NCBI GenBank assembly: GCA_045544275.1
Contig: JAZPYS010000084.1
Coordinates: 1,471-65,470, forward strand
DNA length: 64,000 nt
From: Acetatifactor sp.
Lineage (GTDB): Bacteria > Bacillota > Clostridia > Lachnospirales > Lachnospiraceae
Reading direction: 5' to 3'
The notes beneath the pieces were generated by a model. The model made no database searches and was not told the origin of the DNA. It was given only the letters and a program-made list of their open reading frames with translations. Shown here piece by piece: positions 40,150-63,388 of the stretch; position 1 is the stretch's first letter; every line of letters starts with the position of its first letter. A program made the translations under genes and the position numbers.

Positions 40150-42057
40150 ATGAAATATCCTGTAAATTGTAAAAATATAATTGACGTAACAAAACCACCC
40201 TATCACGTAGACAATACCGGAAAAGTAGATTGTACGGAAAGTTTATGTCAGATATTTGATGATATCCTGATCCGAGAAGTGAAAGGGGTGGAAGAAATCA
40301 AAAAGAAGCTGTTAAGAATGGGAAAGGTACCGGCCTACATCGGTTTCGAGTCCCGTATTACGGATGAATTAAATGTAATATTCCCGGAATATGTTCCTTC
40401 ATCGAAGATCATTTATTTTCCGGCAGGTATCTATTGGGTAAGTGATACGATTAGCTACCGTTTGAAAAATCTACAGAATATCTTCTTATCAAAGCCCTTT
40501 TCAGAGCTTTGCCGAGGGATACATATCCTTGGAGAGAGCAAGGACAGTGTGGTAATTCGTTTGGCGGATCATGCCCGGGGCTTTGAGAAGGAAGCAAAAA
40601 AGCCGGTAATAAGCTTCAATAATGCACCTAACTGTTGCCTTGAGGAGAAAACAAATGTGGCACAGATGAATACCATTGAAGATTTGACTATTGACTGTGG
40701 CAGTGGAAATCCGGGAGCAGTGGGTATTCGATTCAGTGCCAGCAACAGCGGAAGGATCGAGAATGTTACCTTGCGTGCACAGGAAGGATATTGCGGCATC
40801 CATATGGCCTATGGAGCAGAGGGAAGCTTTGTAAACATTAAAGCAGATGGCTTTGATTACGGAGTAGATACTTTTGTTAGTTCATTGTGCGTATTTGAGG
40901 ATATGCAGTTGGCAGGTAATAGACGAAGTGCTATAAAATTGGGAGATGGAAAAGTTTTATTTCACAGAATAAAAAGTGAACCACTTCCACTGTTTGAGTT
41001 TTACGATGGTCCTCTGGGAAAAGGCAAAGGAGCATATTACTGTAGTGATTGTGATAGTGTACCTACAGAGGATGCGAAAGGCAATAAAGTATATGTGGCA
41101 GAGGAAGGAGTGGACACCACAGGCAGATTGGAAATTCCTTGGAATCCAAGAAGCAAAAATCCTTTGGACTATGTCTGCGTGGACGATTTCGGGGCTGTTG
41201 GAGATGGCTTAACAGATTCGACCGCAGCTATTCAGGCGGCATTTGACAGCGGAAAGCCAATCATTCTTTTTGGAGAAGGACATTATTTAGTGGATGGAGA
41301 AATCACCATACCGGCTACGGTAAAAACCATTGATTTTATGTTTTGCGATCTGTTTGCAGGGAAGAAGTTAAAATTTACCAGAGGTGGTGCATTGTTCCAT
41401 ATCAATGAGGATTCATCGGATCTGCTCTTTATGGAGAATTTGTACACATTTGAACAGTTTCATGGACATTTCCGTCTGATAAAGCATGGTGCCGTAAGGG
41501 ATCTTTGCTTGAGTGATCTGCATACTCAGACTGCCGCTATGTATTTTAATACAGTATCCGGAAGTAAGGTGTACATAGACAATTGTGCCTGTACTACAGG
41601 TTCCTACAGTCAGAATATTATCCTGGAAAAGGAAGGGGAAGATCCGGAGTATACCTATGTGATCCCCTTTGAATTCCATGGACAGTGTGTTTACGGCAGA
41701 CAGGTTAATCCGGAAAGAGCAGATGTGGAGATCCTTAATAATGGATCCACAGTTTATCTGGATGGATTTAAGGTAGAGGGGCCGGGAACGGCCATGAAGA
41801 CCATAAATGGGGGACATACGGTGATTAATGTATTTTCAGCAGGCATTGGGAATGCAGAGGCTAGCAATGCACTGATTGAGACCAAGGATGGTACGACTAT
41901 TCTGACTGGTGGGCTTATTGGTTCGTTTGAGGAAGAAACCATGTATCACATAGTTTACGAGAGCGATAAGGATGGAAAGGTTTCAAAGATAATGAGTAAG
42001 GAAGTGCCTGATCATGTGGGGCCGTATACTCTTCGACTGGGCCGTTATCAGGTATAA
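40150..42057 (+). CDS. Right-handed beta-helix glycosidase/lyase (Pectate_lyase_3 / GH55-like), no signal peptide
   Basis: DFGAVGDGLTDSTAAIQAAFD motif, degenerate first copy VDNTGKVDCTESL, IYFPAGIY, DCGSGNPGAVGI. Confidence 0.75.
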   Translation: MKYPVNCKNIIDVTKPPYHVDNTGKVDCTESLCQIFDDILIREVKGVEEIKKKLLRMGKVPAYIGFESRITDELNVIFPEYVPSSKIIYFPAGIYWVSDTISYRLKNLQNIFLSKPFSELCRGIHILGESKDSVVIRLADHARGFEKEAKKPVISFNNAPNCCLEEKTNVAQMNTIEDLTIDCGSGNPGAVGIRFSASNSGRIENVTLRAQEGYCGIHMAYGAEGSFVNIKADGFDYGVDTFVSSLCVFEDMQLAGNRRSAIKLGDGKVLFHRIKSEPLPLFEFYDGPLGKGKGAYYCSDCDSVPTEDAKGNKVYVAEEGVDTTGRLEIPWNPRSKNPLDYVCVDDFGAVGDGLTDSTAAIQAAFDSGKPIILFGEGHYLVDGEITIPATVKTIDFMFCDLFAGKKLKFTRGGALFHINEDSSDLLFMENLYTFEQFHGHFRLIKHGAVRDLCLSDLHTQTAAMYFNTVSGSKVYIDNCACTTGSYSQNIILEKEGEDPEYTYVIPFEFHGQCVYGRQVNPERADVEILNNGSTVYLDGFKVEGPGTAMKTINGGHTVINVFSAGIGNAEASNALIETKDGTTILTGGLIGSFEEETMYHIVYESDKDGKVSKIMSKEVPDHVGPYTLRLGRYQV

Positions 42058-42082
42058 ATAATAGATGTCGGAGGAATAAGTC

Positions 42083-42883
42083 ATGGATATGTATCATTAT
42101 TATGCGGATAAGACAGAAAAGCCGTTGGATAAAATTCCTGCAAACGGAGGTTTTTGCCGGATATTTCGAAAGATAGGATGTATCGGAGATAGTCTGTCTT
42201 CCGGTGAGTTTCAGATCTTTTTAGAGGACGGAACACCTGACTTTTTCGATATGTATGAGTATTCGTGGGGACAGCATATGGCCCGTATGACAGGTAGTAT
42301 CGTATACAATTTTTCCAGAGGCGGTATGACTGCAAAGGAGTATTGTGAAGAGTTTGCGGAGCATTATGGCTACTGGAACCCGGACAAGGCCTGTCAGGCA
42401 TATATCATTGCCTTGGGTTGCAACGACATAAGATTTCCGGAAGAGATAGGCTCCATTGAGGATATTGATTTTGAGAATTATCACAATAATAAACCTACCT
42501 TTGTGGGATATTATGGGAAGATTATCCAGCGGCTAAAGGAGATTCAGCCCCGGGCAAAATTTTTTTTAGTGACCATTCCCAGGGATGATGATTTGGGGAA
42601 ATATGATGTAGAAGAAAGAGTGAATGAGCTAATTGCAGAGATGGCTGAGCGGTTTGAAAACACCTATCTGATTGATCTTCATACTTATGCACCGGCTTAT
42701 GATAAAGAGTTTAGGAAAATGTTCTTCTTGGAAGGGCATATGAATCCGGCAGGATATGTGTTTACAGCAGATATGATTGCTGCATATATAGATTATATCA
42801 TCCGTAGCCGTATGGATGAATTTAAGGAGATTGGCTTTATCGGTACTCAGATCGTAAACTATCCGCAAAAGGTGCAGGATTAA
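42083..42883 (+). CDS. SGNH/GDSL hydrolase (probable acetylesterase)
   Basis: GDSLSSG (block I), RGG (II), LGCND (III), GHMNPAGY (V). Confidence 0.85.
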   Translation: MDMYHYYADKTEKPLDKIPANGGFCRIFRKIGCIGDSLSSGEFQIFLEDGTPDFFDMYEYSWGQHMARMTGSIVYNFSRGGMTAKEYCEEFAEHYGYWNPDKACQAYIIALGCNDIRFPEEIGSIEDIDFENYHNNKPTFVGYYGKIIQRLKEIQPRAKFFLVTIPRDDDLGKYDVEERVNELIAEMAERFENTYLIDLHTYAPAYDKEFRKMFFLEGHMNPAGYVFTADMIAAYIDYIIRSRMDEFKEIGFIGTQIVNYPQKVQD

Positions 42884-42898
42884 AGGAGGGTGTGGAGA

Positions 42899-43681
42899 AT
42901 GGATTATAACTATCATACCCATACCTGCAGATGCGGGCATGCAAGCGGAAGTTCGGAAGCTTACATAGAGCGAGCCATTGAATGTGACATAAAATATATG
43001 GGTTTTTCAGATCATATGCCTTATATCTGTTCTGACGGATATGAATCCGGTTTCAGAGTACCGGTTGCGGAGGCGGAGGCATATTTTCAAGAGCTGTCCG
43101 CCTTGCGGGAAAAATACCAATTACAGATCGATATTAAGATTGGTTTTGAAATGGAATATTATCCCCGTCATTTTCAGAAGATGCTAAAAAGTGCCATTTC
43201 TTTTGGAGCAGAGTATTTGATCTTGGGACAACATTTTAACAGGGAAGAACATCCGGTCGGGATTCACAATATTACAGGAACGGACGGTGTGAATGTATTA
43301 CGCGAGTATGTAGACTGCGTGGTCAGTGCAATAAAAAGCGGTGTTTTTACATATATTGCACATCCTGATATGTTTTATTTCACAGGTTCGGAGGATATGT
43401 ACCGAACGGAGATGAGAAAGATTTGCAGAGCCTCTAAAACATACGATGTACCTCTTGAGATTAATTTTTTAGGTATTCGGGAAGGAAGAATCTATCCCAA
43501 TGAAGTGTTCTGGAAAATTGCCGGAGAGGAAGGTTCCCCTGTAACCTTCGGTTTTGATGCCCATGATGTGGAGAGTGCTTTTGATAGCAGAAGCCTTAAG
43601 ATGGCAGAGGCACTTGTGAAAAAGTATGGTCTGAATTACGTAGGGAGGCCGAAGACAATCGGGTTGAGGTATTTTGTATGA
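42899..43681 (+). CDS. PHP-family phosphatase (HisJ histidinol-phosphatase-like)
   Basis: YHTHT..CGHA, SDH, GFEMEY, AHPD, GFDAH. Confidence 0.88.
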   Translation: MDYNYHTHTCRCGHASGSSEAYIERAIECDIKYMGFSDHMPYICSDGYESGFRVPVAEAEAYFQELSALREKYQLQIDIKIGFEMEYYPRHFQKMLKSAISFGAEYLILGQHFNREEHPVGIHNITGTDGVNVLREYVDCVVSAIKSGVFTYIAHPDMFYFTGSEDMYRTEMRKICRASKTYDVPLEINFLGIREGRIYPNEVFWKIAGEEGSPVTFGFDAHDVESAFDSRSLKMAEALVKKYGLNYVGRPKTIGLRYFV

Positions 43682-45270
43682 GAATAATGACAAGCAATAT
43701 CTGGGGCGATTATTTTGATAATGAAGTACAGATACGAGAGGAACAATTATTTAATGTTTATAAAAAGTATGATCCCGATATAATCGGATTTCAGGAGGTA
43801 ACCTCCGGATGGTATGAAAGCAGCCTTTTTACAAGACTCTCCGAAAACTACAAATTAATTGGCACAGAGCTTTTTGATAAATGTAATTTTGTGCCCATTG
43901 CAGTAAAAAAGAGTTTTCGATTAATTGCAAAAGGATTTGAATATTTCGAAAATACACCGGATGAGTCAAAGGCGATTACCTGGGCTGTTATGGACGATGG
44001 GCAGAATAGATTTGCTGTCTGCAACACCCACTTCTGGTGGATGCGAGGCAGCGAATCGGAGGCGGATAGGAAACTGTTGGAGCCGGTGATCGGGCAGATG
44101 ATTTATTGGAATCAAGATAAACATGATGATCTGAGAGCACAGAATGCAGCACAGTTGACTCAATTGATGAAATTTCTTCAGGAGAAATATGCCTGTCCGG
44201 TATTTGCCTTTGGCGATATGAATTCAACCATTACAGAAAGCGTCTTTGATGTTTATAAAGCTAATGGTATACAAAAACTTTTTGAAGTGGCAAAGCAGAG
44301 GGATAGGATTTGTACTACACATGGCAATCCCGTGCGTGGATCAGATGGTGTATTTCATGGAGTAAAATCTACGGATGCGTATATTAATTCTTTCAGACAA
44401 GTGCTGGGCCTGCCTGAAAGAAAAGACCAGGAAGGTTACTATACCTCAATTGATCATATGATTGGTCTGGGAGAGGGATTCAAAGTAATGCAATATCGTG
44501 TTGTGGAGGATCAGGAGGCATTGGACGCAACAGATCATTCCCCGGTGTATGCGGATATTTTTTTGACATCTTCGGAGTATGCACAAGTTAAGAAGAACAC
44601 CGTAGACGCACAAAATCAACTAAAGGAAGATGAGTTCGTACGATTTTTTAATGCAGATGAAAGAGGACCAAGAATTATGTTTGTAGGTAATTCCATCACG
44701 CTTCATGGGGTGAGACCTGAGATTGGATGGTATAACGAATGCGGAATGGCTGCATCCTCTGCAGACAAAGATTATGTTCATCTTTTGATGACAGAAACAA
44801 AGAAAAGATACAAAAATGCAGCTTTTTGTATCTGTCAGGTAGCTGCATGGGAGAGACAGTATAAAGACGGAGAGAATTTGCATTATTTATTTAAAAATGC
44901 GCAGGAATTTGATGCTGATATTATCATCATGCGTTTTATAGAAAATTGTTCTCAGGAAGATTTTGATGAGGAAATTTTTAAAAAAGAAGCAATAACCCTT
45001 TTGCAGTATTTAAACAATTCTAACTCAGCAAAAATAATATTGACAACAAGCTTCTGGCATCATCCCGGGGATGTGGCTATTGCAGACCTTGCTGAAAGAT
45101 ACAATTTTCCGATAGTTTCACTTGGCGATTTGGGTGAAAAAGATGAAATGAAAGCAATTGGATTGTTTAAACATGAAGGTGTTGCAATTCATCCGGGAGA
45201 TTTGGGAATGAAAAATATTGCAGATAGAATTTGGAGCGAATTAGAAAAAATCTTAACAACAAAAGATTAA
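43678..45270 (+). CDS. Fusion of an endonuclease/exonuclease/phosphatase (EEP) domain and an SGNH hydrolase
   Basis: MTSNI, GFQEV, NTHF, GDMNS, IDH, TDHSPV in the N-terminal half; FVGNSITLHG and IHPGDLGM in the C-terminal half. Confidence 0.8.
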   Translation: MRIMTSNIWGDYFDNEVQIREEQLFNVYKKYDPDIIGFQEVTSGWYESSLFTRLSENYKLIGTELFDKCNFVPIAVKKSFRLIAKGFEYFENTPDESKAITWAVMDDGQNRFAVCNTHFWWMRGSESEADRKLLEPVIGQMIYWNQDKHDDLRAQNAAQLTQLMKFLQEKYACPVFAFGDMNSTITESVFDVYKANGIQKLFEVAKQRDRICTTHGNPVRGSDGVFHGVKSTDAYINSFRQVLGLPERKDQEGYYTSIDHMIGLGEGFKVMQYRVVEDQEALDATDHSPVYADIFLTSSEYAQVKKNTVDAQNQLKEDEFVRFFNADERGPRIMFVGNSITLHGVRPEIGWYNECGMAASSADKDYVHLLMTETKKRYKNAAFCICQVAAWERQYKDGENLHYLFKNAQEFDADIIIMRFIENCSQEDFDEEIFKKEAITLLQYLNNSNSAKIILTTSFWHHPGDVAIADLAERYNFPIVSLGDLGEKDEMKAIGLFKHEGVAIHPGDLGMKNIADRIWSELEKILTTKD

Positions 45271-45334
45271 TTCTCCCCAACCAAAGCTGGAGAGTTTTAA
45301 TAAAAACAAATTAAAATCATGGAGGTAGGAAACG

Positions 45335-46708
45335 ATGAAGAAGAAAATGTTAGCCGTATTGCTTGCAGGAACTATGGTTGTAGCAGCACTTGCAGGATGT
45401 GGCAAAGAGGAAGCAACTAAGACTTCCGAATCTTCCAAGGTGGAAGAATCCAAAGTGGAGGAGTCCAAAACTGAGGAATCAACGATTGAAGAGTCAAAGG
45501 AAGAAGTGGTAGATTACACTGGTAAGACCCTTCGTATCGGCTGGTGGGGCGGTGATGCCAGACATGAGAGTACCATGACTATTATCGAAGAATTTGAAAA
45601 GCAGTATCCCGGATTAACTGTAGAGGTTGAATTTGCCGGATTTGGTGATTATTTTACAAGACTGAATACACAGGCGGCAGGAGGTGAGCTTCCTGACGTT
45701 ATGCAGATGTCGTATGCTAAGATTTATAATTTTGCTGAAAATGATCAGTTGCTTGACCTGACACCATATATTGCAGATGGAAGCATCGATATGACAAATG
45801 TATCTGAAAACGCTGTGAAAATGGGTGAAGTATGCGGCGGTAATTACGGTGTAGCATGTGGTATGAATGGTCTGTCACTTATGTACAATCCGGCTATACT
45901 TGAAGAGGCTGGTTGTACACTGAGCATGGAACCATCTCTCAGTGAGTTTATGGAAGTAGGCAGAACGGTATACGAAAAGACTGGTTCAAGAATTCACCTT
46001 CTGGGTGCGGAGAATGGTCAGATTTTCTACAGAAGTCTGGGTGGAGATACCTGGACAGACGGAGAGGATGTTTTAGGTTATACAGAAGAGATGCTGTTAG
46101 AATGGCTTTCTGCTAACCTGAAAGGTGTAGAAGAGGATATTCTTCGTGTTCCTAATAACATGGTAGAAGACAATAATGCAAGTGCATTGGCGACAGGAGA
46201 AATGTGGTGCATTTTAGAAACCTGTAATGCTATTACTAGCCATGAAACTGCTGCAGGAATTGAACTTGAAATTGTTTCACAACCTCATGCAGATAACGCA
46301 ACCGTAGAGTATCCTACATTCTTACAGCCTTCTATGCTTTGGAGTGTGGCTGCTGATACAGAATTGGCAGAGGTGGCAGCTGCTTTCATTGATTATTATA
46401 CAAACAATACTTATGTATATGATGTATGTGGTATGGACAGAGGGTTACCTATCAGTTCAGCGATTCATGAGTATTTGGCTCCAAGCTTGACAGAAGCAGA
46501 TAAAAAGGCTATAGCATACTTAGAGTATTTGGGTGAACACAGTACACCTATGAATATTTATGCGCCGGCAAAGAGTGCAGAGGCGGCAGCAGTTATCTTT
46601 GAATTGTATGAAAAGGTTACTTATGCAGCGGTAACACAGGAAGAACTTCCTGCATTGGTACATGAAGCATATGAAAAAGCAAATGCAATTTTAAGTTCTG
46701 CAGAATAA
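45335..46708 (+). CDS. Carbohydrate ABC transporter substrate-binding lipoprotein
   Basis: Lipobox LAGC, SKVEE repeats, WWGG..RH, AAGGELPDV, YNPAILEEAG. Confidence 0.9.
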   Translation: MKKKMLAVLLAGTMVVAALAGCGKEEATKTSESSKVEESKVEESKTEESTIEESKEEVVDYTGKTLRIGWWGGDARHESTMTIIEEFEKQYPGLTVEVEFAGFGDYFTRLNTQAAGGELPDVMQMSYAKIYNFAENDQLLDLTPYIADGSIDMTNVSENAVKMGEVCGGNYGVACGMNGLSLMYNPAILEEAGCTLSMEPSLSEFMEVGRTVYEKTGSRIHLLGAENGQIFYRSLGGDTWTDGEDVLGYTEEMLLEWLSANLKGVEEDILRVPNNMVEDNNASALATGEMWCILETCNAITSHETAAGIELEIVSQPHADNATVEYPTFLQPSMLWSVAADTELAEVAAAFIDYYTNNTYVYDVCGMDRGLPISSAIHEYLAPSLTEADKKAIAYLEYLGEHSTPMNIYAPAKSAEAAAVIFELYEKVTYAAVTQEELPALVHEAYEKANAILSSAE

Positions 46709-46714
46709 AATCAA

Positions 46715-46751
46715 AAAAAGGATGTCATGCCAATGGCATGGCATCCTTTTT
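46715..46751 (+). terminator. Stem-loop after the binding-protein gene (partial terminator or mRNA stabiliser)
   Basis: AAAAAGGATGTCATGCCA-A-TGGCATGGCATCCTTTTT. Confidence 0.75.
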
Positions 46752-46771
46752 GGGAAAGGAGTGCTTTTGAC

Positions 46772-47656: not shown

Positions 47657-47672
47657 GCAGGAGGTAAATTGA

Positions 47673-50335: not shown

Positions 50336-50389
50336 TAAAAAACGGGGTGTCAAACTTGACACTACCAAAAAGAAATGAGGAATATTGAT

Positions 50390-51364: not shown

Positions 51365-51409
51365 AACGGCTGATATGACATCATCATGTTATCAGGAATG
51401 GAGGATATT

Positions 51410-52135: not shown

Positions 52136-52167
52136 TTATGACCGATACGAGAAAGGGGATTGAGTAC

Positions 52168-53817: not shown

Positions 53818-53949
53818 TTTTTACTTTAGTTTCATGCAGGAAGGATAATTATTCCTGATGGGATTGGCAGATATGTAAATATGCAACTTTTCGCAAACGA
53901 AATTTAAATACAAAGAAGTTATATCTGGTGATTATGAAGTGACGATTAA

Positions 53950-54099
53950 TGGCATGGAAATTCCATTATAAATATAGTAAATGAGCGATTCCGAAAATTG
54001 TACGAAAATAGTATCTGGCAGGTTGTGTGCCACCACCTGGGAGATAAGGGAATGCGTACGATAGCTGAACGCATCTGGTCTGTTACAAAGGAGAAATAA
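53950..54099 (+). pseudogene. Collapsed SGNH hydrolase remnant
   Basis: Frame reads WHGNSII...VCHHLGDKGMRTIAERIWSVTKEK*, resembling GNSI and HPGDLGMKNIADRIW of the SGNH domain at 43678-45270; no start codon. Confidence 0.6.
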
Positions 54100-54129
54100 A
54101 GTTGATTGTTGTAGGCAGGAGATAGGATA

Positions 54130-57206: not shown

Positions 57207-58122
57207 TATCGGAGGAACCACTGTGAAAGCAGGAGTGGTTTCGGAAGAAAGAAAAATTGTACATAAAGCAAATGCACCTACGGTAAGAGGAGATGTGGAT
57301 AGTTTTGTAAAAAGTATTATTGATCTACTGAATGAGCTATTGGCGGGTGCACAGCTCAAGTTACAGGATATCCATAGGATTGGAGTAGGATGCCCCGGGA
57401 TTGTTGATTCAGAGACGGGGACCGTAGTGGATGCCGATAATCTGGAATTAGTATATATACCTTTAAAGGCGCGGTTGGAGAGAGCGCTTATGATGCCGGT
57501 GACGGTCAATAATGATGCCAACTGTGCAGCATGGGGAGAGTATCTGGCTCTTTCCGATGATAGTATCAACAGTCTGGTCATGGTAACATTGGGAACAGGG
57601 ATCGGCGGAGGTATCATTCTGAACAAACGGTTATATACCGGTTGTGATGGATCTGCAGGTGAATGGGGATGCATGATTATGGAAACCAGTAGCTCGGAAG
57701 CATCATTAGGACCGAAGCAATACTGGGAGAATTATGCCTCTGCATCAGCGTTGGTAAGAGCTGCAGAGGAAGCAGCAGCAAAATGTCAGGATTCTCTGTT
57801 GAATGTGTTAATAAAGCAGAATGAAGGTAAGGCAGATGGTAAGCTGTTTTTTCAAGCGTTGGAGCAAAAAGATGAGACTGCAGTAACTGTTTTTGAAGAA
57901 TATATACATCGATTGGGTGATGGTCTTATTAATATTTTATATATTTTTCGACCGGATGTACTTGTTATTGGAGGCGGCTTAAGCCAAGCTGATTTGTTGT
58001 GGGAACCATTGAAGCAATATCTGGCTAAAAACAGTGATTGTTTTCAGAGAAACAGGCAAACCCGGATATGTAAAGCAGTACTGGGAAATGATGCAGGAAT
58101 TATTGGAGCTGCGTTTTTGTAA
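57187..58122 (+). CDS. ROK family sugar kinase (atypical)
   Basis: IDIGGT, NDANCAAWGE, TLGTGIGGG, LGNDAGIIGAA. Confidence 0.88.
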   Translation: MYCIGIDIGGTTVKAGVVSEERKIVHKANAPTVRGDVDSFVKSIIDLLNELLAGAQLKLQDIHRIGVGCPGIVDSETGTVVDADNLELVYIPLKARLERALMMPVTVNNDANCAAWGEYLALSDDSINSLVMVTLGTGIGGGIILNKRLYTGCDGSAGEWGCMIMETSSSEASLGPKQYWENYASASALVRAAEEAAAKCQDSLLNVLIKQNEGKADGKLFFQALEQKDETAVTVFEEYIHRLGDGLINILYIFRPDVLVIGGGLSQADLLWEPLKQYLAKNSDCFQRNRQTRICKAVLGNDAGIIGAAFL

Positions 58123-58175: not shown

Positions 58176-59117
58176 ATGAAAATTTGTTTCATAGGAGACT
58201 GCGGACATGCATTTCAAACTTACAATGAAATGAAAATGTGTGAAGAGGCTGAGTTTGTAGGAGTTGCTCCTGCAAGTGAACATGATGATATAGAAGCGTT
58301 AAAGAAATATGAAATACCGATTTTTGATTCATATGAGAAAATGATAAAAGATGCTTTACCGGATATTGCAGTGATTTCGCCGGTGTTTGGTTTGACTGGA
58401 AGAATAATACAATATTGTGCAAAGCGGAAATTAGATATTTTTGCAGAAAAGCCAATTGCGTCAAATCTTACTGAACTAGTATCCGTTGAGAAAGCAATAA
58501 GGGAGAATAATGTACATTTCTCGGCTATGCACTTTTTGCGTTTTCACCCATCTTTTTATCATGCTCAAAAACAAGTGGATGGTGGTGCAATTGGTGAAGT
58601 GAGAATGATAACTGCTCAAAAAAGCTATAAATATGGTATTCGCCCGGAATGGTATAAAGAACGTGAATTATACACCGGGACGATTCCCTGGGTTGGAATT
58701 CATGCGATTGATTGGATTTCCTTTATTGCAAAAAAAAAGTTTAGGTCTGTAAGAGCTTTACATTGCGGTAATCCGGAAATGGTAGCCCTTTGTCAGTTTG
58801 AGTTAGAAGAAGATGTCATTGCTTCTATTAATATTGATTATATGAGACCGCAAACCGCTATGACACATGGGGATGATCGTTTGAGAGTAGTGGGGAGTAA
58901 AGGTGTAATTGAGGTGTTCAGTGATAAATATGTACTGATTAATGAAGAGGGAATACAAGAGTACCGCCCTACGGAAGCACCCAAACTGGCTTATGATTAT
59001 TTGTTAAGAAAAGAAGAAATTTCACCTGAAGAAATTTTTGAGATTACAAGGGTAGCACTTTGTACAAGGGAATCCGCAGATACCCATAAGGTTATAGAAA
59101 ATTTGACAGGCATGTAA
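58176..59117 (+). CDS. Gfo/Idh/MocA oxidoreductase
   Basis: AEKPIA, GAIGEV, WVGIHAID, VVGSKG. Confidence 0.85.
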   Translation: MKICFIGDCGHAFQTYNEMKMCEEAEFVGVAPASEHDDIEALKKYEIPIFDSYEKMIKDALPDIAVISPVFGLTGRIIQYCAKRKLDIFAEKPIASNLTELVSVEKAIRENNVHFSAMHFLRFHPSFYHAQKQVDGGAIGEVRMITAQKSYKYGIRPEWYKERELYTGTIPWVGIHAIDWISFIAKKKFRSVRALHCGNPEMVALCQFELEEDVIASINIDYMRPQTAMTHGDDRLRVVGSKGVIEVFSDKYVLINEEGIQEYRPTEAPKLAYDYLLRKEEISPEEIFEITRVALCTRESADTHKVIENLTGM

Positions 59118-59147
59118 AAATTTGCTTTTTCAGGGGATGAGGGAAAT

Positions 59148-60344
59148 ATGTTAACTGAAAAAAGTATTTTAGAATTGGCAGAAAAGAATGAAACGTATGT
59201 AAAAGAAATCTTTCGATGGCTGCATCAGCATCCGGAAGTGGCACATAAAGAACAGGGCACAAATCAATATCTACGGGAGCGGTTAGATGAATTAGGTGTT
59301 CCGTATGATATGCCAAAGGATAATATTACCATTGCAGTGATTGATAGTGGCAAAACGGGATGTACTGTGGGATTGAGATGTGATACCGATGCACTTCCCG
59401 TACAGGAAGAAACAGGATTACCATATGCTTCTGTTTATGATGGTGTGATGCATGCTTGTGGACATGATGCACATATGGCAATCGGAATGGGGACTGCAAA
59501 AATTTTAATAGAGAATATAGAACAATGGTCCGGCAAAGTGAAAATCATTTTTCAACCAGCGGAAGAAGGGGAAAATGGTTCAGATCAAGTGATTGGAACA
59601 GGATTAGTTGATGATGTGGATGTTTTTTTCGCAATTCATGTGTGGAGTCCTTATCCGAGTGGGGAGTTTCATGTATCCCCCATAACTGTCAGTGCCGCAG
59701 TAAATATGTTTACGATTCGCATTACAGGAAAAGGTGGGCATGGTGCGACTCCGGAAAAATGCGGCGATGCGATTGTGGCAGGTGCGGCGTTAGTTTCTTC
59801 TTTGCAGACAGTAGTTTCCAGAGCAATATCCCCAATGGAATCCGCAGTGCTGACAATTGGAAGCTTCCATGCCGGATCGGCAGGGAATATCATTGCACAG
59901 GAGGCTGTGCTTCAGGGCACACTACGGACATTAAATGAAGAAACGCGACAGAAAGCTTCGGAATTACTTTGCTCTTTTGCAGAACACACGGCAATGATGT
60001 ACGGATGCGAAGCAGAGGTGACGGATATACGTGTAAGTGATGCCGTTACTAATAATAAAACAGTGACGGAAATCGCTTTGAAATGTGCGAAAGAGCTGGT
60101 AGTATCGGATTTGATCAGGGAACAAAAGACAATGATGTTGGGGGATAATTTTGCCAATTATGGTTCAATTGCGCCATACTGTTATGTGCAGGTGGGAATT
60201 GCAAATAAAGAGAAGCGGACAGATTTTGCACATCATAACGGAAGATTTGCGGTAGATGAAGATGTACTGTGTCCATGTGTGGCATGGATGACAAGTTTTG
60301 CGATTGACAGTGCAAAAGAGATGGAAGCAGGATGGAGGAGATGA
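59148..60344 (+). CDS. M20D amidohydrolase (N-acyl amino acid hydrolase-like)
   Basis: LHQHPE, DTDALP, HACGHDAH, FQPAEE, GGHGA, AHHN. Confidence 0.9.
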   Translation: MLTEKSILELAEKNETYVKEIFRWLHQHPEVAHKEQGTNQYLRERLDELGVPYDMPKDNITIAVIDSGKTGCTVGLRCDTDALPVQEETGLPYASVYDGVMHACGHDAHMAIGMGTAKILIENIEQWSGKVKIIFQPAEEGENGSDQVIGTGLVDDVDVFFAIHVWSPYPSGEFHVSPITVSAAVNMFTIRITGKGGHGATPEKCGDAIVAGAALVSSLQTVVSRAISPMESAVLTIGSFHAGSAGNIIAQEAVLQGTLRTLNEETRQKASELLCSFAEHTAMMYGCEAEVTDIRVSDAVTNNKTVTEIALKCAKELVVSDLIREQKTMMLGDNFANYGSIAPYCYVQVGIANKEKRTDFAHHNGRFAVDEDVLCPCVAWMTSFAIDSAKEMEAGWRR

Positions 60345-60348
60345 TAAG

Positions 60349-61377
60349 ATGATGCAGGAAAATTGGACAGAAGAAAAGTTAAATAGCCTTTTGACAACAC
60401 CGAGTGATAATTTGGTGGAAGATATTCAAAAGATAAAAGGGGATATAATGGTGCTTGGTGCAGGTGGCAAGATGGGACCAACTCTTTGTGTACTTGCAAA
60501 AAATGCAGTCAAAAAAGCCGGAATTGAGAAGCGAATCATTGCAGTATCACGAGGAAGTGACAAAATTGCAACGAAATTGATGGTGGATAATGGCGTAGAA
60601 GTCATTGCCATGGATTTGCTTGATAGAAAGAAATTAGATGAGCTTCCTGATGTGGAAAATATTATTTACATGGCGGGCAAGAAGTTTGGCACAAATGGGA
60701 ATGAATGGCAGACATGGGCGATGAATTCCGTTGTACCGGCATTTGTTGCAGATCGTTTTCGCGGGAAAAATATTGTGGTTTTTTCATCTGGTAATATTTA
60801 TCCCATTGTCCCTATAAACAGCGGTGGATGTACGGAGACAGATAAACCTATTCCAAATGGAGAGTATGGAATGAGTACTCTGGCAAGAGAACGTATCTTT
60901 GAACATGCCTCTCATGAATATGGTACAAAAGTTCTTATGTATCGTCTGAATTTTGCGGTTGATTTACGGTATGGAGTTTTATTTGATGTGGCAAAGAATA
61001 TTTTAAATGAAGAGAAGATCCGGCTTTCAACACCATGCTTTAATTTTATTTGGCAGGGACATGCAAATGAAATTGCAATCAGAGGGTTACTTCATGCAAC
61101 TTCGCCGGCATGTGTTATGAATGTAACGGGTCCGGAAACTGTTTCTATTAAGAAAGCAGCTATTGAGCTGGGACAGTATCTGGGAAAAGAGCCAATGTTT
61201 GAAGGCGAGGAAGGTACTGATGCATATTTGAATGATGCATCCAAAGCAATGGAAATTTTTGGTTACCCGGAAGTTAGTGCAAAAACTTTGATAAAATGGC
61301 AGGCACAATATCTTTTGGATGGAGGACGTACTTTGGATAAACCCACACATTTTGAAGAACGAGGAGGAAGTTACTAA
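60349..61377 (+). CDS. NAD-dependent epimerase/dehydratase (extended SDR)
   Basis: LGAGGKMG Rossmann loop, SSGNIY, EYGMSTLARE; start moved to ATG 60349 behind GGAGG. Confidence 0.82.
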   Translation: MMQENWTEEKLNSLLTTPSDNLVEDIQKIKGDIMVLGAGGKMGPTLCVLAKNAVKKAGIEKRIIAVSRGSDKIATKLMVDNGVEVIAMDLLDRKKLDELPDVENIIYMAGKKFGTNGNEWQTWAMNSVVPAFVADRFRGKNIVVFSSGNIYPIVPINSGGCTETDKPIPNGEYGMSTLARERIFEHASHEYGTKVLMYRLNFAVDLRYGVLFDVAKNILNEEKIRLSTPCFNFIWQGHANEIAIRGLLHATSPACVMNVTGPETVSIKKAAIELGQYLGKEPMFEGEEGTDAYLNDASKAMEIFGYPEVSAKTLIKWQAQYLLDGGRTLDKPTHFEERGGSY

Positions 61378-62438
61378 TGGGTAGAAGTCAGAAAGCAATG
61401 GAGATTTTGCAGAAAGGGACAGTGATTCCGGCAACCCCGTTGGCACTTGATGAAAATAGAAAATTTGATGAAGCACAGCAGCGTATTTTAATGCGGTACT
61501 ACTTAGACTGTGGTGTGGGAGGAATAGCAACTGCTGTACATACGACTCAATTTGAGATTCGCGAACCGGAAGTAAATCTATTAGAACCCGTCTTAAAGGT
61601 GGTTTCTGAAGAAATTGAATCGTACGAAATGAAAACAGGAAAAGTCATTGTAAAAGTATCCGGTGTTTGTGGTCCAAAAGAACAAGCTGTGAAAGAAGCA
61701 AAACTTGCAAAGGCATATGGTTACGATGCAGTACTTTTAAGCCCAGGCGGATTAAATGATTTATCGGAAGATGAGCTGATAGAACGTACAGAAGCTGTTG
61801 CAAAAATTATGCCGGTTATTGGATTTTATCTGCAGACCGCAGTGGGAGGCAGAGCGTTTAGTTATAACTATTGGGAACGTTTGGCTGCGATCAATAATGT
61901 GGTTGCTATTAAATGTGCATCTTTCAATCGTTACCAGACACTTGATGTGGTACGTGCTGTAGCAATGTCTGACAGATGCGATGATATTACTCTTTACACA
62001 GGAAATGATGATAATATCGTAATAGACCTTTTAACCAAATATAAATTTGATAAAAACGGAAAGCTGGTAGAAAAATCATTTCAGGGCGGATTATTGGGGC
62101 ATTACTCAGTATGGACAAGAAAAGCTGTGGAAATTTTTGAACGTATACAGGAAGCAAAAAAGAAGGATGTGATTCCGGAAGGATTTCTTACATTAGCGGC
62201 AGAAGTTACAGATGCAAATAGTGCATTCTTTGATACTGCAAATGGTTTTGCAGGGTGTATTGCAGGGCTTCATCATGTATTAGTCGGACAAGGGTTGATG
62301 AGAAATATTTATTGTTTAAATCCACAGGAAACTTTGTCAGCAGGGCAACAAGAAGAAATTGCGAGAGTATATCGTATGTACTCACACTTAAATGATGATG
62401 ATTTTGTGAAGGAAAATTTAAAAAGCTGGAGTGAATAG
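61377..62438 (+). CDS. DapA/NanA-like (DHDPS family) class I aldolase/lyase
   Basis: VIPATPL, HTTQF, GFYLQ (Tyr), AIKCASF (Schiff-base Lys), LYTGNDD; TAATG coupling to the epimerase. Confidence 0.8.
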   Translation: MGRSQKAMEILQKGTVIPATPLALDENRKFDEAQQRILMRYYLDCGVGGIATAVHTTQFEIREPEVNLLEPVLKVVSEEIESYEMKTGKVIVKVSGVCGPKEQAVKEAKLAKAYGYDAVLLSPGGLNDLSEDELIERTEAVAKIMPVIGFYLQTAVGGRAFSYNYWERLAAINNVVAIKCASFNRYQTLDVVRAVAMSDRCDDITLYTGNDDNIVIDLLTKYKFDKNGKLVEKSFQGGLLGHYSVWTRKAVEIFERIQEAKKKDVIPEGFLTLAAEVTDANSAFFDTANGFAGCIAGLHHVLVGQGLMRNIYCLNPQETLSAGQQEEIARVYRMYSHLNDDDFVKENLKSWSE

Positions 62439-62440
62439 CA

Positions 62441-63388
62441 ATGGATAAAATTAAGATTGCGGTTGTGGGAACTGGGAGCATCGGAATAAGTCACTTGATA
62501 GCGATCGATCAGTCTGAAGTATGTGAATTGAGAGTGGTTTGTGATATTAATGAGAAGATTGCAAAGGAATTTGGAGAACAGTATAAGGTATCATATTGCA
62601 CTGATTACAAAGAAATTGCTTTAATGTCGGATGTGGATGCAGTAATCTTAAATCTACCTCATTGGCTTCATTGTGAAGTGACAGAATTTTTCTTGAATTC
62701 GGGGAAGCATGTACTTGTAGAAAAACCCATGGCCAATACAGTGGAAGAATGCGACAGAATGATAGCTGCTTCGGAAAAAAATGGAAAAAAACTAGCAGTT
62801 GGACATGTACAAAGATATTTCATGGCCAACCGCTTGGTTAAGGAGATTTGCCAATCCGGTCAGCTAGGGAAATTATGCCTTTATGAGGAATATCGTAGTG
62901 TTAACTATTTTGATGAGCGGCGACCAAAATGGTTTTTGGACAAAAAACTTTCAGGTGGCGGTATTGTTATGAATTATGGTGCACATGCATTTGACAAACT
63001 TTTTTATATCTTAGATTGTGATCCAAAAGAGATATGGGCAAATGTAGATAATATAAAAAATAGCGAGACGATAGAAGGACATGCACAGATTTTGGCAAAA
63101 TTTGAAAATGATGTCAGTGCAGCAATAACTTTTTGTGGATATGTGGGAAGTGGATATGAAGCAAGATATTATTTTACAGAAGGAACATTAAAAGTTGTTG
63201 ATGGAATGCATTTATATCAAAATGATGGAAAAGACGGGTGGAAGGAAATTCACAACATAGAAGATGGTGAATTTATGAAGAGGCAGTTAGAGGGTTTTTG
63301 TGCATTAATACGTGGCGAGAGTACAGATATTCCCACTGGTAAATATGGTAAAAAAGTAATTCAGACAATTGCACAAATTTATGATTAA
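62441..63388 (+). CDS. Gfo/Idh/MocA oxidoreductase
   Basis: VGTGSIG, PHWLH, HVLVEKPMA, SGGGIVMNYGAHAFD. Confidence 0.9.
   Translation: MDKIKIAVVGTGSIGISHLIAIDQSEVCELRVVCDINEKIAKEFGEQYKVSYCTDYKEIALMSDVDAVILNLPHWLHCEVTEFFLNSGKHVLVEKPMANTVEECDRMIAASEKNGKKLAVGHVQRYFMANRLVKEICQSGQLGKLCLYEEYRSVNYFDERRPKWFLDKKLSGGGIVMNYGAHAFDKLFYILDCDPKEIWANVDNIKNSETIEGHAQILAKFENDVSAAITFCGYVGSGYEARYYFTEGTLKVVDGMHLYQNDGKDGWKEIHNIEDGEFMKRQLEGFCALIRGESTDIPTGKYGKKVIQTIAQIYD

What the first reader, a model, noticed from the sequence alone, without database searches (positions are those of the whole stretch)
40150..63388. ~23-kb catabolic island for an unidentified acylated sugar, built like a non-canonical nonulosonate/rare-sugar pathway
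Seen: about 19 co-oriented genes covering ABC uptake, two SGNH esterase domains, NagA, M20 amidohydrolase, ROK kinase, DapA/NanA-like aldolase, class II aldolase, XI-like isomerase, SDR epimerase, two Gfo/Idh/MocA enzymes, GH127, a beta-helix enzyme and two phosphatase-type domains. Only the binding protein is clearly exported. Established: sialic acid loci combine O-acetylesterase, NanA, ROK-type NanK, NagA and, in Ruminococcus gnavus, a Gfo/Idh/MocA oxidoreductase. Here NanE and a sialidase are not seen, and the aldolase and kinase are divergent. Inference: a pathway for an O- and N-acylated, possibly phosphorylated sugar such as a bacterial nonulosonic acid (pseudaminic/legionaminic type), another microbial glycan component, or rare plant pectin sugars. 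The substrate cannot be read from sequence.
Basis: partly seen in the sequence, partly recalled or inferred. Interest (0 to 1): 0.75.

Follow-up and report, generated by a model that had tools for sequence, protein, structure and literature searches.

The report
Mosaic sugar-utilisation locus, substrate unknown
This 23-kb stretch of a gut Clostridia-type genome is an ordinary kind of sugar-uptake-and-breakdown locus, pieced together from gene cassettes that occur separately in other bacteria; it is not a dedicated sialic-acid-like pathway, and two of its cassettes are common but unstudied.

Summary
Only the binding protein is exported.

The island fits the definition of a Gram-positive polysaccharide-utilisation locus (glycosidase, ABC importer, regulator) with cytoplasmic processing, and the substrate cannot be read from sequence. 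It is not a conserved unit in any of 141 related loci. Three parts recur on their own:
- The binding protein, two permeases, kinase and regulator are 72-90% identical in a relative that carries GH88 and GH78 instead.
- The isomerase, FucA-type aldolase and GH127-like glycosidase form a cassette. In this island it sits between the kinase and regulator genes.
- The atypical SDR and NanA-like lyase are adjacent in 69 of 80 metagenome loci. Their usual neighbours are an M20 amidohydrolase, a 2-hydroxyacid dehydrogenase and L-serine dehydratase, not sialic-acid genes.

The nan-cluster tests fail: NanA and NanK score far below cut-off, and NanE and a sialidase are absent. Verdict: a new member of a known kind, of modest interest. 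The two uncharacterised cassettes are the useful leads.

The parts
40150..42057 (+). g01: cytoplasmic protein with two tandem beta-helix domains, GH55-like; candidate exo-glycosidase
   Evidence: Pfam Pect-lyase_RHGA_epim matches in both halves. Best PDB sequence hits are GH55 beta-1,3-glucanases 3eqn (E = 2.7e-9) and 5m5z (E = 6e-9), which is weak. No signal peptide. The family has 163 representatives at E <= 1e-30. No homologue in any fetched locus.
42083..42883 (+). g02: SGNH/GDSL esterase; candidate O-acetyl esterase
   Evidence: Lipase_GDSL_2, E = 6.3e-15. A 50%-identical homologue lies in L056 near another GH127 and a g18-g19 pair.
42890..43681 (+). g03: PHP-domain phosphoesterase of the HisJ family
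   Evidence: PHP, E = 1.8e-16. The histidinol-phosphatase models all score below cut-off, for example 124 bits against 202.
43678..45270 (+). g04: fusion of an N-terminal EEP phosphoesterase with a C-terminal SGNH-like domain
   Evidence: Exo_endo_phos scores 24.5 bits, which equals the cut-off. The C-terminal half gives Lipase_GDSL_2 at E = 0.026 over the full profile, plus a GNSIT motif. No PDB sequence hit.
45335..46708 (+). g05: lipoprotein solute-binding protein of a CUT1-type ABC importer; the only exported product
   Evidence: SBP_bac_1 and SBP_bac_8. Lipobox LAGC. The family is rare, with 36 proteins at E <= 1e-10. Orthologues are 72% identical in L062, 49% in L064 and 37% in L066.
46727..48506 (+). 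g06 and g07: the two ABC permeases. No ATPase gene is present in the island.
   Evidence: BPD_transp_1 in both. They are 80% and 90% identical to the L062 permeases.
48584..50335 (+). g08: YesM-type membrane sensor histidine kinase
   Evidence: His_kinase PF06580 plus HATPase_c. 77% identical over 578 residues to the L062 kinase.
50375..51364 (+). g09: xylose-isomerase-like TIM barrel; candidate aldose-ketose isomerase of the cassette
   Evidence: AP_endonuc_2, E = 3e-28. PDB 3ktc, E = 1.9e-49. Xylose and L-rhamnose isomerase models match well below their cut-offs. 64-82% identical next to GH127-like genes in 19 loci.
51386..52135 (+). g10: class II aldolase of the FucA type
   Evidence: Aldolase_II, E = 2.8e-36. 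FucA structures match at E = 1e-16. The alignment with E. coli FucA and AraD keeps the FucA Glu73, Tyr113 and three His equivalents, and lacks the AraD Asp.
52138..53817 (+). g11: cytoplasmic GH127-like glycosidase
   Evidence: GH127 catalytic and middle domains. E292, C294, C359 and C360 are invariant in 40 homologues and align with the ETC and CC motifs of 6ex6. The AlphaFold model has pLDDT 92.5. It superposes on GH127/GH146 beta-L-arabinofuranosidases at TM 0.77-0.80, and on the aceric acid hydrolase BT_1003 at TM 0.72.
53818..54129 (.). 312-bp spacer, the only long gap in the island. It probably separates two transcription units.
   Evidence: Gap table, sequence. No convincing + strand terminator; the pattern scans are at chance level.
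54130..55146 (+). g12: YesN-type response regulator (receiver domain plus AraC DNA-binding domain)
   Evidence: Response_reg, HTH_18 and HTH_AraC. 78% identical to the L062 regulator. That regulator, like those of L064 and L066, directly follows its kinase.
55166..56308 (+). g13: NagA-like amidohydrolase; candidate amino-sugar-phosphate de-N-acetylase
   Evidence: TIGR00221 nagA scores 220.2 bits against a cut-off of 225.65. Amidohydro_1.
56292..57206 (+). g14: EamA/DMT transporter; its reading frame overlaps both neighbours
   Evidence: EamA, E = 1.5e-39. The YddG exporter model scores 126 bits against a cut-off of 300. Overlaps of 17 and 20 bp.
57187..58122 (+). g15: ROK-family sugar kinase
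   Evidence: ROK, E = 5.5e-63. ROK_glcA_fam scores 217 against 260, and the NanK and NagK models are far below cut-off.
58176..59117 (+). g16: Gfo/Idh/MocA oxidoreductase
   Evidence: GFO_IDH_MocA N- and C-terminal domains.
59148..60344 (+). g17: M20 amidohydrolase of the aminoacylase type
   Evidence: TIGR01891 scores 320 bits against a cut-off of 153.75. Only 22-33% identical to the M20 that usually accompanies the g18-g19 pair.
60349..61377 (+). g18: atypical extended SDR (GalE-like fold family); obligate partner of g19
   Evidence: Epimerase, E = 1.7e-9. No PDB hit with the single sequence. The profile hits GalE-1 3ehe at E = 2.8e-7, with the Tyr conserved but the Lys of YxxxK replaced by Cys/Thr. 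49-81% identical and adjacent to g19 in 69 of 80 metagenome loci.
61377..62438 (+). g19: DHDPS/NAL-superfamily enzyme, NanA-like fold; candidate pyruvate-dependent lyase
   Evidence: DHDPS, 37 bits. K179, Y151 and T56-T57 are invariant. AlphaFold model pLDDT 90.6, with NanA structures as best matches at TM 0.71/0.83. At least 8000 relatives, the listed ones 71-77% identical.
62441..63388 (+). g20: Gfo/Idh/MocA oxidoreductase; last gene of the island
   Evidence: GFO_IDH_MocA, E = 1.2e-26. Best PDB hit is DgpA (E = 1.5e-25), with RgNanOx 6z3b at E = 5e-17. Homologues of 24-58% identity lie near the pair in 8 of 80 metagenome loci, and a 53% homologue in L057.

Best explanation
The island is a Gram-positive polysaccharide-utilisation-type locus that was assembled from separate modules.

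Proposed mechanism, all inferred:
1. A YesM/YesN-type two-component system (g08, g12) senses an extracellular oligosaccharide.
2. A CUT1 ABC importer (g05-g07) takes it up, powered by an ATPase encoded elsewhere.
3. All breakdown is cytoplasmic:
   - SGNH esterases (g02, the g04 C-terminal half) remove O-acyl groups.
   - PHP and EEP phosphoesterases (g03, the g04 N-terminal half) remove phosphate or cut phosphodiesters.
   - A GH55-like beta-helix enzyme (g01) and a GH127-like enzyme (g11) cut glycosidic bonds.
4. The sugar released by g11 (beta-L-arabinofuranosyl-type or another rare sugar) is isomerised by g09. After phosphorylation by a kinase not identified here, the FucA-type aldolase g10 splits it into DHAP and a short aldehyde.
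5. An N-acetylhexosamine part is phosphorylated by g15 and de-N-acetylated by g13.
6. The g16-g20 block (two Gfo/Idh/MocA oxidoreductases, an M20 amidohydrolase, an atypical SDR, a NanA-like lyase) degrades an N-acylated amino(sugar) acid-like part to pyruvate.

Shown here: gene content, cellular location, conserved catalytic residues, folds, and which genes travel together. Inferred: every substrate and the order of the steps.

The units that evolution keeps together are the modules, not the island:
- the transport and sensor core;
- the g09-g10-g11 cassette, which sits here between the kinase and regulator genes that are adjacent in relatives;
- the g18-g19 pair.
For: Locus type:
- The B. 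subtilis yes locus has the same regulator and transporter architecture (PMC2788870).
- Genes are tightly packed and co-oriented. Only g05 is exported.

Transport and sensor core:
- L062 is 72%, 80%, 90%, 77% and 78% identical for g05, g06, g07, g08 and g12.
- L064 is 49-70% identical, and L066 35-67%.
- Each of these relatives has a different enzyme set.
- The kinase and regulator are adjacent in all three.

Cassette g09-g11:
- Of 52 non-redundant GH127-anchored loci, 19 carry the XI-like gene, 17 a class II aldolase and 16 both.
- 16 carry an RpiR/SIS regulator and 13 an AraC regulator.

Enzyme-level evidence for the cassette:
- g11 has the GH127 fold and the Glu/Cys/Cys/Cys site.
- g10 has the FucA catalytic set.

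Pair g18-g19:
- The two genes are adjacent in 69 of 80 metagenome loci.
- In the 30 loci of at least 12 kb, an M20 is present in 18, a 2-hydroxyacid dehydrogenase in 11 and L-serine dehydratase in 6.
- g19 keeps the Schiff-base Lys and the Tyr, and has a NanA-like fold.
Against: - No experiment or expression data. No RNA run holds the sequence, and only two older metagenome runs hold 5-11% of its 31-mers.
- No ketose-1-kinase (FGGY or PfkB type) for the g09/g10 route, no NagB, and no ABC ATPase is present in the island.
- g01, g03 and g04 have no homologue in any fetched locus, so nothing is known about their associations.
- Tight packing could mean one substrate-specific operon that simply has no sequenced close relative. 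The nearest homologues of g11 and g05 are only 69-74% identical, and I could view the contexts of only a few of them.
- Most family assignments are below the curated equivalog cut-offs.
Confidence: 0.55

Rival explanations
1. The 20 genes form one dedicated pathway for an O- and N-acylated, possibly phosphorylated nonulosonic acid of the pseudaminic or legionaminic type. In this reading g19 is the lyase, g17 and g13 are de-N-acylases, g02 and g04 are O-acetyl esterases, and g16 and g20 are NanOx-like oxidoreductases.
For: NanA is the best sequence and structure match of g19. The island also has a NagA-like enzyme, a ROK kinase, SGNH esterases and two Gfo/Idh/MocA enzymes. g20 matches RgNanOx 6z3b at E = 5e-17.
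Against: - nanA and NanK equivalog scores are far below cut-off.
- No NanE and no sialidase.
- g20 is closer to DgpA and GFOR than to RgNanOx.
- In 85 loci the g18-g19 pair never sits with sialic-acid genes. Its neighbours are M20, TetR, 2-hydroxyacid dehydrogenase, L-serine dehydratase and Nramp.
- The transporter-core orthologues go with GH88 and GH78.
- The GH127 cassette and the beta-helix glycosidase have no role in a monosaccharide-acid pathway.
Confidence: 0.06
2. The island salvages rare sugars from plant pectin or hydroxyproline-rich glycoprotein fragments (RG-II, arabinogalactan protein, extensin). g11 would release beta-L-arabinofuranose or aceric acid, g09 and g10 would catabolise it, g19 would split Kdo or Dha-type 3-deoxy acids, and the esterases would remove the acetyl groups.
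For: - GH127 enzymes are known as beta-L-arabinofuranosidases and as the RG-II aceric acid hydrolase BT1003 (PMC13501991, PMC10850190).
- The only NCBIfam hit of g11 is the aceric acid hydrolase model, at 55.7 bits.
- Relatives of the cassette sit with GH29, GH2, an SGNH esterase and GH10.
- The closest transporter-core relative has GH78, GH88 and GH29.
- The source genomes of relatives come from herbivore and Hadza guts.
Against: - The g11 model superposes better on beta-L-arabinofuranosidases (TM 0.77-0.80) than on BT_1003 (TM 0.72). The aceric acid model score is 55.7 bits against a cut-off of 950.
- NagA, the ROK kinase, M20 and the two phosphoesterases have no obvious pectin role.
- The usual neighbours of the g18-g19 pair are amino-acid-type enzymes.
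Confidence: 0.15
3. The island scavenges fragments of a microbial cell-envelope polymer, such as a teichoic-acid-like, capsular or fungal wall glycan that carries phosphodiester links, O-acetyl groups, GlcNAc and amide-linked amino acids.
For: The island combines two phosphoesterases, two esterase domains, a NagA-like enzyme with a ROK kinase, an aminoacylase-type M20, and a GH55-like enzyme whose nearest structures are beta-1,3-glucanases. The neighbours of the g18-g19 pair are amino-acid-type enzymes.
Against: All of this is family-level only. EEP sits at threshold, the GH55 link is weak (E about 1e-9 over roughly 100 residues), and no relative locus shows this combination. The GH127 cassette points to plant-type furanosides.
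Confidence: 0.12
4. There is no common substrate. The stretch is two or more unrelated operons that happen to be adjacent and co-oriented: the g01-g11 sugar locus, and g12 or g13 to g20 as a separate amino-sugar or amino-acid-derivative operon.
For: A 312-bp spacer precedes g12. The modules recur independently elsewhere, and the M20-SDR-DHDPS unit can stand alone among housekeeping genes (L060).
Against: The response regulator g12 belongs with kinase g08, yet it heads the second block only 19 bp before g13. That ties the two halves together in regulation. L064 also has a NagA-like amidohydrolase directly after its regulator. L056 brings together M20, SDR, DHDPS, GFO, a g02-like SGNH esterase and a GH127 within 21 kb.
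Confidence: 0.15

Closest known systems
Gram-positive polysaccharide-utilisation loci (gpPULs) of Lachnospiraceae, and the Bacillus subtilis yes rhamnogalacturonan locus (yesMN two-component system, yesOPQ ABC importer, cytoplasmic hydrolases and acetylesterases)
   Same: The architecture matches: a PF06580 histidine kinase, a receiver-AraC regulator, a CUT1 binding protein with two permeases and no ATPase, and cytoplasmic glycosidases and SGNH esterases in one orientation (PMC5320581; PMC2788870).
   Different: The enzyme set is different: no GH105, GH88 or lyases. It has a GH127-like enzyme, a GH55-like enzyme, phosphoesterases and an amino(sugar) acid-type block. The kinase and regulator genes are separated by a three-gene cassette. 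No sequence comparison with the yes proteins was made.
Bifidobacterium longum HypBA1 system (cytoplasmic GH127 beta-L-arabinofuranosidase fed by an ABC importer of beta-arabino-oligosaccharides)
   Same: A cytoplasmic GH127-fold enzyme with the conserved Glu/Cys/Cys/Cys site, next to an ABC importer (PMC7263609 abstract).
   Different: g11 is about 100 residues shorter and only 13-17% identical in the structural alignment. It belongs to a Clostridia clade coupled to an isomerase and an aldolase, not to GH121 and GH43 partners. Its specificity is untested.
Isomerase-kinase-aldolase routes for L-fucose, D-arabinose and L-rhamnose (FucI/K/A, RhaA/B/D)
   Same: g10 keeps the FucA Glu, Tyr and three zinc-binding His. 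g09 is a xylose/rhamnose-isomerase-type TIM barrel.
   Different: No FGGY or PfkB kinase lies in the island or, in most cases, in the cassette elsewhere. All equivalog scores are far below cut-off. The sugar is unknown.
Sialic acid (nan) clusters, including the Ruminococcus gnavus 2,7-anhydro-Neu5Ac cluster
   Same: The families overlap: a NAL-like lyase, a ROK kinase, NagA, a Gfo/Idh/MocA oxidoreductase, an esterase and an ABC importer.
   Different: The defining genes fail the tests or are absent (see the membership test). The lyase belongs to a separate, highly conserved family whose genomic partners are not nan genes.
ong pathway for oxidised chitin (GlcNAc1A is deacetylated by OngB, deaminated by OngC to KDG, then KdgK) in Pseudoalteromonas
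   Same: It is a precedent for an amino sugar acid being degraded 'akin to amino acid catabolism' (PMC9537276; PMC12017989). The mix around g18-g19 looks similar: an aminoacylase, a serine-dehydratase-type deaminase, and a 2-keto-3-deoxy-acid-type lyase.
   Different: The protein families differ: M20 rather than a D-aminoacylase fold, an Fe-S L-serine dehydratase rather than a PLP deaminase, and a NAL-like lyase rather than KdgK plus a KDPG aldolase. This is an analogy only; nothing was tested.

Membership tests
Sialic acid / nonulosonate (nan) catabolic cluster | N-acetylneuraminate lyase NanA | tested here: not met
   g19 scores 20.8 bits against a cut-off of 382 (TIGR00683) and 23.2 against 281 (NF003164). 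Only superfamily-level likeness: PDB NanA at E = 3.5e-5 and a NanA-like fold.
Sialic acid / nonulosonate (nan) catabolic cluster | ManNAc kinase NanK | tested here: not met
   g15 scores 134.9 bits against 283 (NF003461) and 112.9 against 450 (NF047821). Its best match is the generic ROK glucokinase family.
Sialic acid / nonulosonate (nan) catabolic cluster | ManNAc-6-P epimerase NanE and a sialidase | tested here: not met
   None of the 20 products gives a NanE or sialidase/BNR Pfam match.
Sialic acid / nonulosonate (nan) catabolic cluster | NanOx-type Gfo/Idh/MocA oxidoreductase | tested here: inconclusive
   g20 hits RgNanOx 6z3b at E = 5e-17 and YjhC 6o15 at E = 3.4e-11. It hits DgpA (E = 1.5e-25) and GFOR (E = 1e-23) better. 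g16 was not searched.
Gram-positive PUL (definition of PMC5320581) | [quoted passage not shown] | tested here: met
   The GH127-like g11 (and the beta-helix g01), the ABC importer g05-g07, and the g08/g12 two-component system.
GH127 glycoside hydrolases | (alpha/alpha)6 catalytic domain plus beta-sandwich domains | tested here: met
   AlphaFold model with pLDDT 92.5. TM 0.77-0.80 to Ara127N, BT3674, HypBA1 and GH146 structures.
GH127 glycoside hydrolases | Zinc-binding Glu/Cys/Cys/Cys site including the cysteine nucleophile | tested here: met
   E292, C294, C359 and C360 are invariant in 40 homologues. They align with the ETC and CC motifs of 6ex6. The mapping to HypBA1 residue numbers is from my own knowledge.
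GH127 glycoside hydrolases | Acid/base glutamate, and actual hydrolysis of a beta-L-arabinofuranoside or other glycoside | not testable with these tools
   E272 is invariant but lies three residues off the aligned Glu of 6ex6. Activity needs an assay.
DHDPS/NAL class I aldolase superfamily | TIM barrel with a Schiff-base lysine and the Tyr/Thr catalytic residues | tested here: met
   K179, Y151 and T56-T57 are invariant in 24 sequences. Model pLDDT 90.6, with NanA and DHDPS structures at TM about 0.7/0.83.
FucA-type class II aldolases | Three zinc-binding His, the catalytic Glu (FucA Glu73) and Tyr (FucA Tyr113) | tested here: met
   Alignment with E. coli FucA and AraD. The His residues are invariant. 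Glu is present where AraD has Asp. Tyr is conserved in g10 and its close homologues, and is Trp in a second subgroup. The residue roles are from my own knowledge. The fucA equivalog score is not met, at 73.6 bits against 400.
Extended SDR (GalE-like) enzymes | Rossmann GxxGxxG motif and the catalytic Ser...YxxxK | tested here: not met
   The Gly-rich motif, Ser146 and Tyr173 are conserved. The Lys of YxxxK is replaced by Thr/Cys in all 22 sequences: YGASK in 3ehe aligns with YAMSC. g18 is therefore an atypical member.
NagA (GlcNAc-6-phosphate deacetylase) | Score above the curated equivalog cut-off | tested here: inconclusive
   g13 scores 220.2 bits against a cut-off of 225.65 for TIGR00221, and 136 against 483 for NF008371.
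GH55 exo-beta-1,3-glucanases | Two tandem beta-helix domains with the family's catalytic residues | tested here: inconclusive
   Two Pect-lyase_RHGA_epim stretches. GH55 structures are the best PDB hits, but only at E = 2.7e-9 over about 100 residues. Catalytic residues were not examined.

The most novel reading that the evidence does not exclude
The tail of the island (g17-g20) would be one instance of a widespread, undescribed catabolic module of anaerobic gut Clostridia. The module combines an aminoacylase-type M20, an atypical SDR that lacks the YxxxK lysine, and a NanA-like lyase. It would convert an N-acylated amino acid-like compound to pyruvate; that compound may be an N-acyl 2-amino-aldonic (amino sugar) acid made by the adjacent Gfo/Idh/MocA oxidoreductases. 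This would be a non-phosphorylative counterpart of the aerobic GlcNAc1A pathway. Separately, the GH127-like, isomerase and FucA-type aldolase cassette would be a self-contained unit that releases and catabolises a rare plant furanosyl sugar.
Probability: 0.2. Interest if true: 0.6.

Novelty: new member of a known kind. Interest (0 to 1): 0.3.

Why it matters
As a whole the island is one more Gram-positive sugar-utilisation locus of unknown specificity. Such loci are very common in gut Clostridia, and the mosaic build is what that class is known for.

The value lies in two by-products.

First, the SDR and NanA-like lyase pair, usually with an M20 amidohydrolase, is highly conserved. The listed homologues are 71-81% identical, and there are at least 8000 proteins and at least 556 metagenome stretches. 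It matches no curated equivalog and has no close solved structure. A common gut-bacterial pathway therefore appears to be unassigned.

Second, the GH127-like, isomerase and aldolase cassette links a glycosidase of a family with three known specificities to a dedicated downstream route. That link could reveal how a rare plant sugar is fermented.

Both cassettes are small, soluble and easy to express, so they can be tested directly.

Tried and rejected
1. Nonulosonate or sialic acid cluster. Rejected on the equivalog scores, the missing NanE and sialidase, and the genomic company of g18-g19.

2. The g18-g19 pair as an alternative route for unsaturated uronates. The first three contexts suggested this because they showed PL8 and heparinase-like genes. 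Rejected: PL8, GH88 and heparinase homologues occur in only 1 of 30 pair loci of at least 12 kb. M20 occurs in 18, a 2-hydroxyacid dehydrogenase in 11 and L-serine dehydratase in 6.

3. g11 as an aceric acid hydrolase with g09/g10 as an isomerase and decarboxylase route. Chemically attractive but weakened. BT_1003 ranks below the beta-L-arabinofuranosidases in both sequence (E = 3e-4 against 7e-15) and structure (TM 0.72 against 0.77-0.80). g10 also has FucA-type aldolase residues. Kept only as a minor rival.

4. g10 as an AraD-type epimerase. Rejected because Glu replaces the AraD Asp.

5. The 715-residue protein of L064 as a homologue of g01. No similarity; it is Melibiase-like.

6. Operon boundaries from promoter and terminator scans. 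The counts are at chance level and not informative.

7. Riboswitch or other RNA elements. No Rfam match at gathering score in 39300-64000.

8. Expression evidence. No RNA run holds the sequence.

9. Literature. No paper joins GH127 with a class II aldolase and an isomerase. The searches on the DHDPS-family, M20 and epimerase module and on GH127 in Lachnospiraceae turned up no description of either cassette.

10. An exact-match look-up of g19 in the assembly collection found nothing.

Full report
**Observation**

Window 40150-63388 holds 20 co-oriented + strand ORFs (g01-g20). Inter-gene distances run from -20 to +77 bp, apart from one 312-bp spacer before g12.

- a two-domain beta-helix protein (g01);
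- an SGNH esterase (g02);
- a PHP phosphoesterase (g03);
- an EEP phosphoesterase fused to a sub-threshold SGNH-like domain (g04);
- a CUT1-type binding protein and two permeases (g05-g07);
- a xylose-isomerase-like TIM barrel (g09);
- a class II aldolase (g10);
- a GH127-like protein (g11);
- a NagA-like amidohydrolase (g13, 220.2 bits against a cut-off of 225.65);
- a ROK kinase (g15);
- two Gfo/Idh/MocA oxidoreductases (g16, g20);
- an M20 amidohydrolase (g17, TIGR01891 at 320 bits);
- an SDR 'epimerase'-type protein (g18);
- a DHDPS/NAL-type protein (g19).

Only g05 has a lipoprotein signal, and the enzymes are cytoplasmic. No ABC ATPase, NagB, NanE or sialidase is present.

The flanks are housekeeping genes: AlaRS, penicillin-binding proteins, ScpAB and a Na+-decarboxylase operon upstream. 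Downstream is a HipA_C-like ORF with its own consensus promoter. Island GC is 0.396, against 0.431 upstream.

**Is it one conserved unit?**

I anchored searches on three genes.

GH127-like g11. It has 238 relatives at E <= 1e-10, the closest 69% identical. An alignment-based scan of 185,579 species genomes gave 49 loci. tblastn of all 20 window proteins against these loci and the context loci shows that only g09 (64-82% identity) and g10 travel with g11. No locus has g01-g04 or g13-g19; one carries a 24%-identical NagA-like gene and two a 28-31% Gfo/Idh/MocA gene.

Binding protein g05. Its family is rare, with 36 proteins at E <= 1e-10.
- L062, the closest relative: g05, g06, g07, g08 and g12 are 72, 80, 90, 77 and 78% identical. 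The enzymes are GH88 and GH78, with GH29 upstream.
- L064: the core is 49-70% identical. It carries GH88, an SGNH esterase, a fucose-isomerase-like gene, another XI-like gene, an esterase and a distant NagA-like gene.
- L066: it carries GH31, GFO and ThuA.

In all three the kinase and regulator genes are adjacent. In the window the g09-g11 cassette sits between them.

NanA-like g19. At least 8000 relatives exist, and the listed ones are 71-77% identical. In the 80 loci kept, g18 is adjacent in 69; the rest are mostly cut contigs. No window gene outside g13, g16-g20 and the generic permeases recurs.

The caveat is that no close relative of this organism is available, and I could view only some contexts.

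**The cassette g09-g10-g11**

Among 52 non-redundant GH127-anchored loci:
- 19 have the XI-like gene, 17 a class II aldolase and 16 both;
- 16 have a divergently placed RpiR/SIS regulator and 13 an AraC regulator.

Neighbouring glycosidases vary: GH3, GH20, GH2, GH29, GH10 and large SGNH proteins.

g11 has the GH127 fold. The AlphaFold model has pLDDT 92.5 and superposes at TM 0.77-0.80 on Ara127N, BT3674, HypBA1 and GH146. E292, C294, C359 and C360 are invariant and align with the ETC and CC motifs of a solved GH127. The aceric acid hydrolase BT_1003 matches less well, at TM 0.72 and sequence E = 3e-4.

g10 keeps the Glu, Tyr and three His of E. coli FucA and lacks the Asp of AraD. g09 is 1.9e-49 to the uncharacterised 'xylose isomerase' 3ktc, and only distantly like xylose or rhamnose isomerases.

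The likeliest logic is the classical isomerase-kinase-aldolase route for a sugar that g11 releases. The kinase is not identified, and the sugar is unknown. GH127 has at least three known specificities: beta-L-arabinofuranose, aceric acid and 3,6-anhydro-D-galactose (PMC10850190, PMC13501991, PMC5698469).

**The pair g18-g19 and its company**

g19 keeps the Schiff-base Lys (K179), the Tyr (Y151) and the Thr-Thr motif. Its model (pLDDT 90.6) is most like NanA structures at TM 0.71/0.83, with DHDPS structures just behind. It fails the nanA equivalogs by a wide margin.

g18 has no PDB hit as a single sequence. A 22-sequence profile reaches archaeal GalE-1 at E = 2.8e-7. The catalytic Tyr is kept, but the Lys of YxxxK is replaced.

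I clustered the neighbours in 83 loci and annotated cluster representatives. The partners are:
- an aminoacylase-type M20 (TIGR01891; 32 loci, directly before g18 or after g19);
- a TetR regulator (11 loci);
- a D-2-hydroxyacid dehydrogenase (10);
- L-serine dehydratase subunits (6 and 5);
- Gfo/Idh/MocA (9);
- an Nramp-type transporter (6);
- CUT1 permeases (11-14);
- occasionally a D-aminoacylase-like amidohydrolase, an M32 carboxypeptidase or a glutamate dehydrogenase.

In L060 the M20-SDR-lyase trio stands alone among housekeeping genes.

A follow-up count in the 30 loci of at least 12 kb gives M20 in 18, a 2-hydroxyacid dehydrogenase in 11 and serine dehydratase in 6. PL8, GH88 and heparinase-like genes occur in 1 each. 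That removes my earlier idea of an unsaturated-uronate route.

The company is of the amino-acid type but often sits inside sugar loci. That mix is what one would expect for an N-acylated amino sugar acid. [quoted passage not shown] This is inference only.

**Working model**

The island meets the published definition of a Gram-positive PUL (PMC5320581). It shares the regulator and transporter architecture of the B. subtilis yes locus (PMC2788870).

1. An extracellular oligosaccharide is sensed by g08/g12 and imported by g05-g07.
2. In the cytoplasm it is de-esterified (g02, g04), dephosphorylated (g03, g04) and cut (g01, g11).
3. The parts are fed into three short routes: g09/g10; g15/g13; g16-g20.

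Because regulator g12 heads the second block, 19 bp before g13, both halves are probably under the same control.

The substrate is not identifiable. The GH88, GH78 and GH29 enzymes of the nearest transporter-core relatives, and the herbivore and Hadza gut origin of relatives, lean towards a plant-derived, acetylated hetero-oligosaccharide. A microbial envelope glycan is not excluded.

**Limits**

- No expression data exist. No RNA run holds the sequence, and two metagenome runs hold 5-11% of the words.
- No Rfam element is present.
- The promoter and terminator scans are at chance level.
- g01, g03 and g04 have no homologue in any fetched locus. g01 belongs to a modest family of 163 representatives at E <= 1e-30.
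- Most assignments are at family level, not equivalog level.

**Verdict**

It is a new member of a known kind of locus. Interest is modest, and the two conserved, uncharacterised cassettes are the parts worth following.

Noticed in passing
L062 1-16716 and L063 1-7360 (relatives of the transporter/sensor core): The orthologous sugar locus (AraC, GH29, MatE, binding protein, permeases, GH88, GH78, kinase, regulator) lies after secY. In L062, the only contig long enough to show it, adk and map follow. The locus is therefore inside the normally compact ribosomal-protein/secY/adk/map gene string. This fits the idea that these loci move between genomic sites.
   Followed up: no
window 48584-55146: The sensor kinase (g08) and its response regulator (g12) are separated by the three-gene g09-g11 cassette and a 312-bp spacer. 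In L062, L064 and L066 the two genes are adjacent. g11 has the lowest GC of the island, at 0.343.
   Followed up: partly
window 60349-61377 and alignment A3: The whole g18 family lacks the lysine of the SDR YxxxK motif (Y173-x-x-S-T/C). It keeps the Gly-rich motif, Ser146, Tyr173 and several invariant Arg and Lys residues. It is an atypical SDR with no solved close relative.
   Followed up: partly
window 39362-40149: This is a 788-bp gene-free stretch before the island. A 34-nt-arm hairpin (39369-39451, 94% complementary) follows the decarboxylase operon. A second terminator-like hairpin lies at 40009-40048. Between them are several GGGTCT...AGACCCC-like short palindromes around 39550-39700, and a Shine-Dalgarno-preceded 7-codon ORF at about 39889. 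There is no Rfam match in the part scanned, from 39300.
   Followed up: partly
window 63590-64000: An ORF running off the window end gives a sub-threshold HipA_C match (21.3 bits against a cut-off of 30.5). It is preceded by a perfect 12/12 sigma-70-type promoter at 63542-63571.
   Followed up: no
window 10779-15128 (- strand): A 1449-residue protein with two BcrAD/BadFG ATPase domains and DUF2229 (CoA-enzyme-activase type). It also gives a weak N-terminal match to an IS110 transposase domain.
   Followed up: no
L056 1-21068: One metagenome locus brings together, within 21 kb, an M20, the SDR/NanA-like pair, a Gfo/Idh/MocA gene, a 50%-identical homologue of g02 and a different GH127. It also has heparinase-like/SLH proteins and a polysaccharide deacetylase. 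This is the only relative in which several of the window's families recur together.
   Followed up: partly
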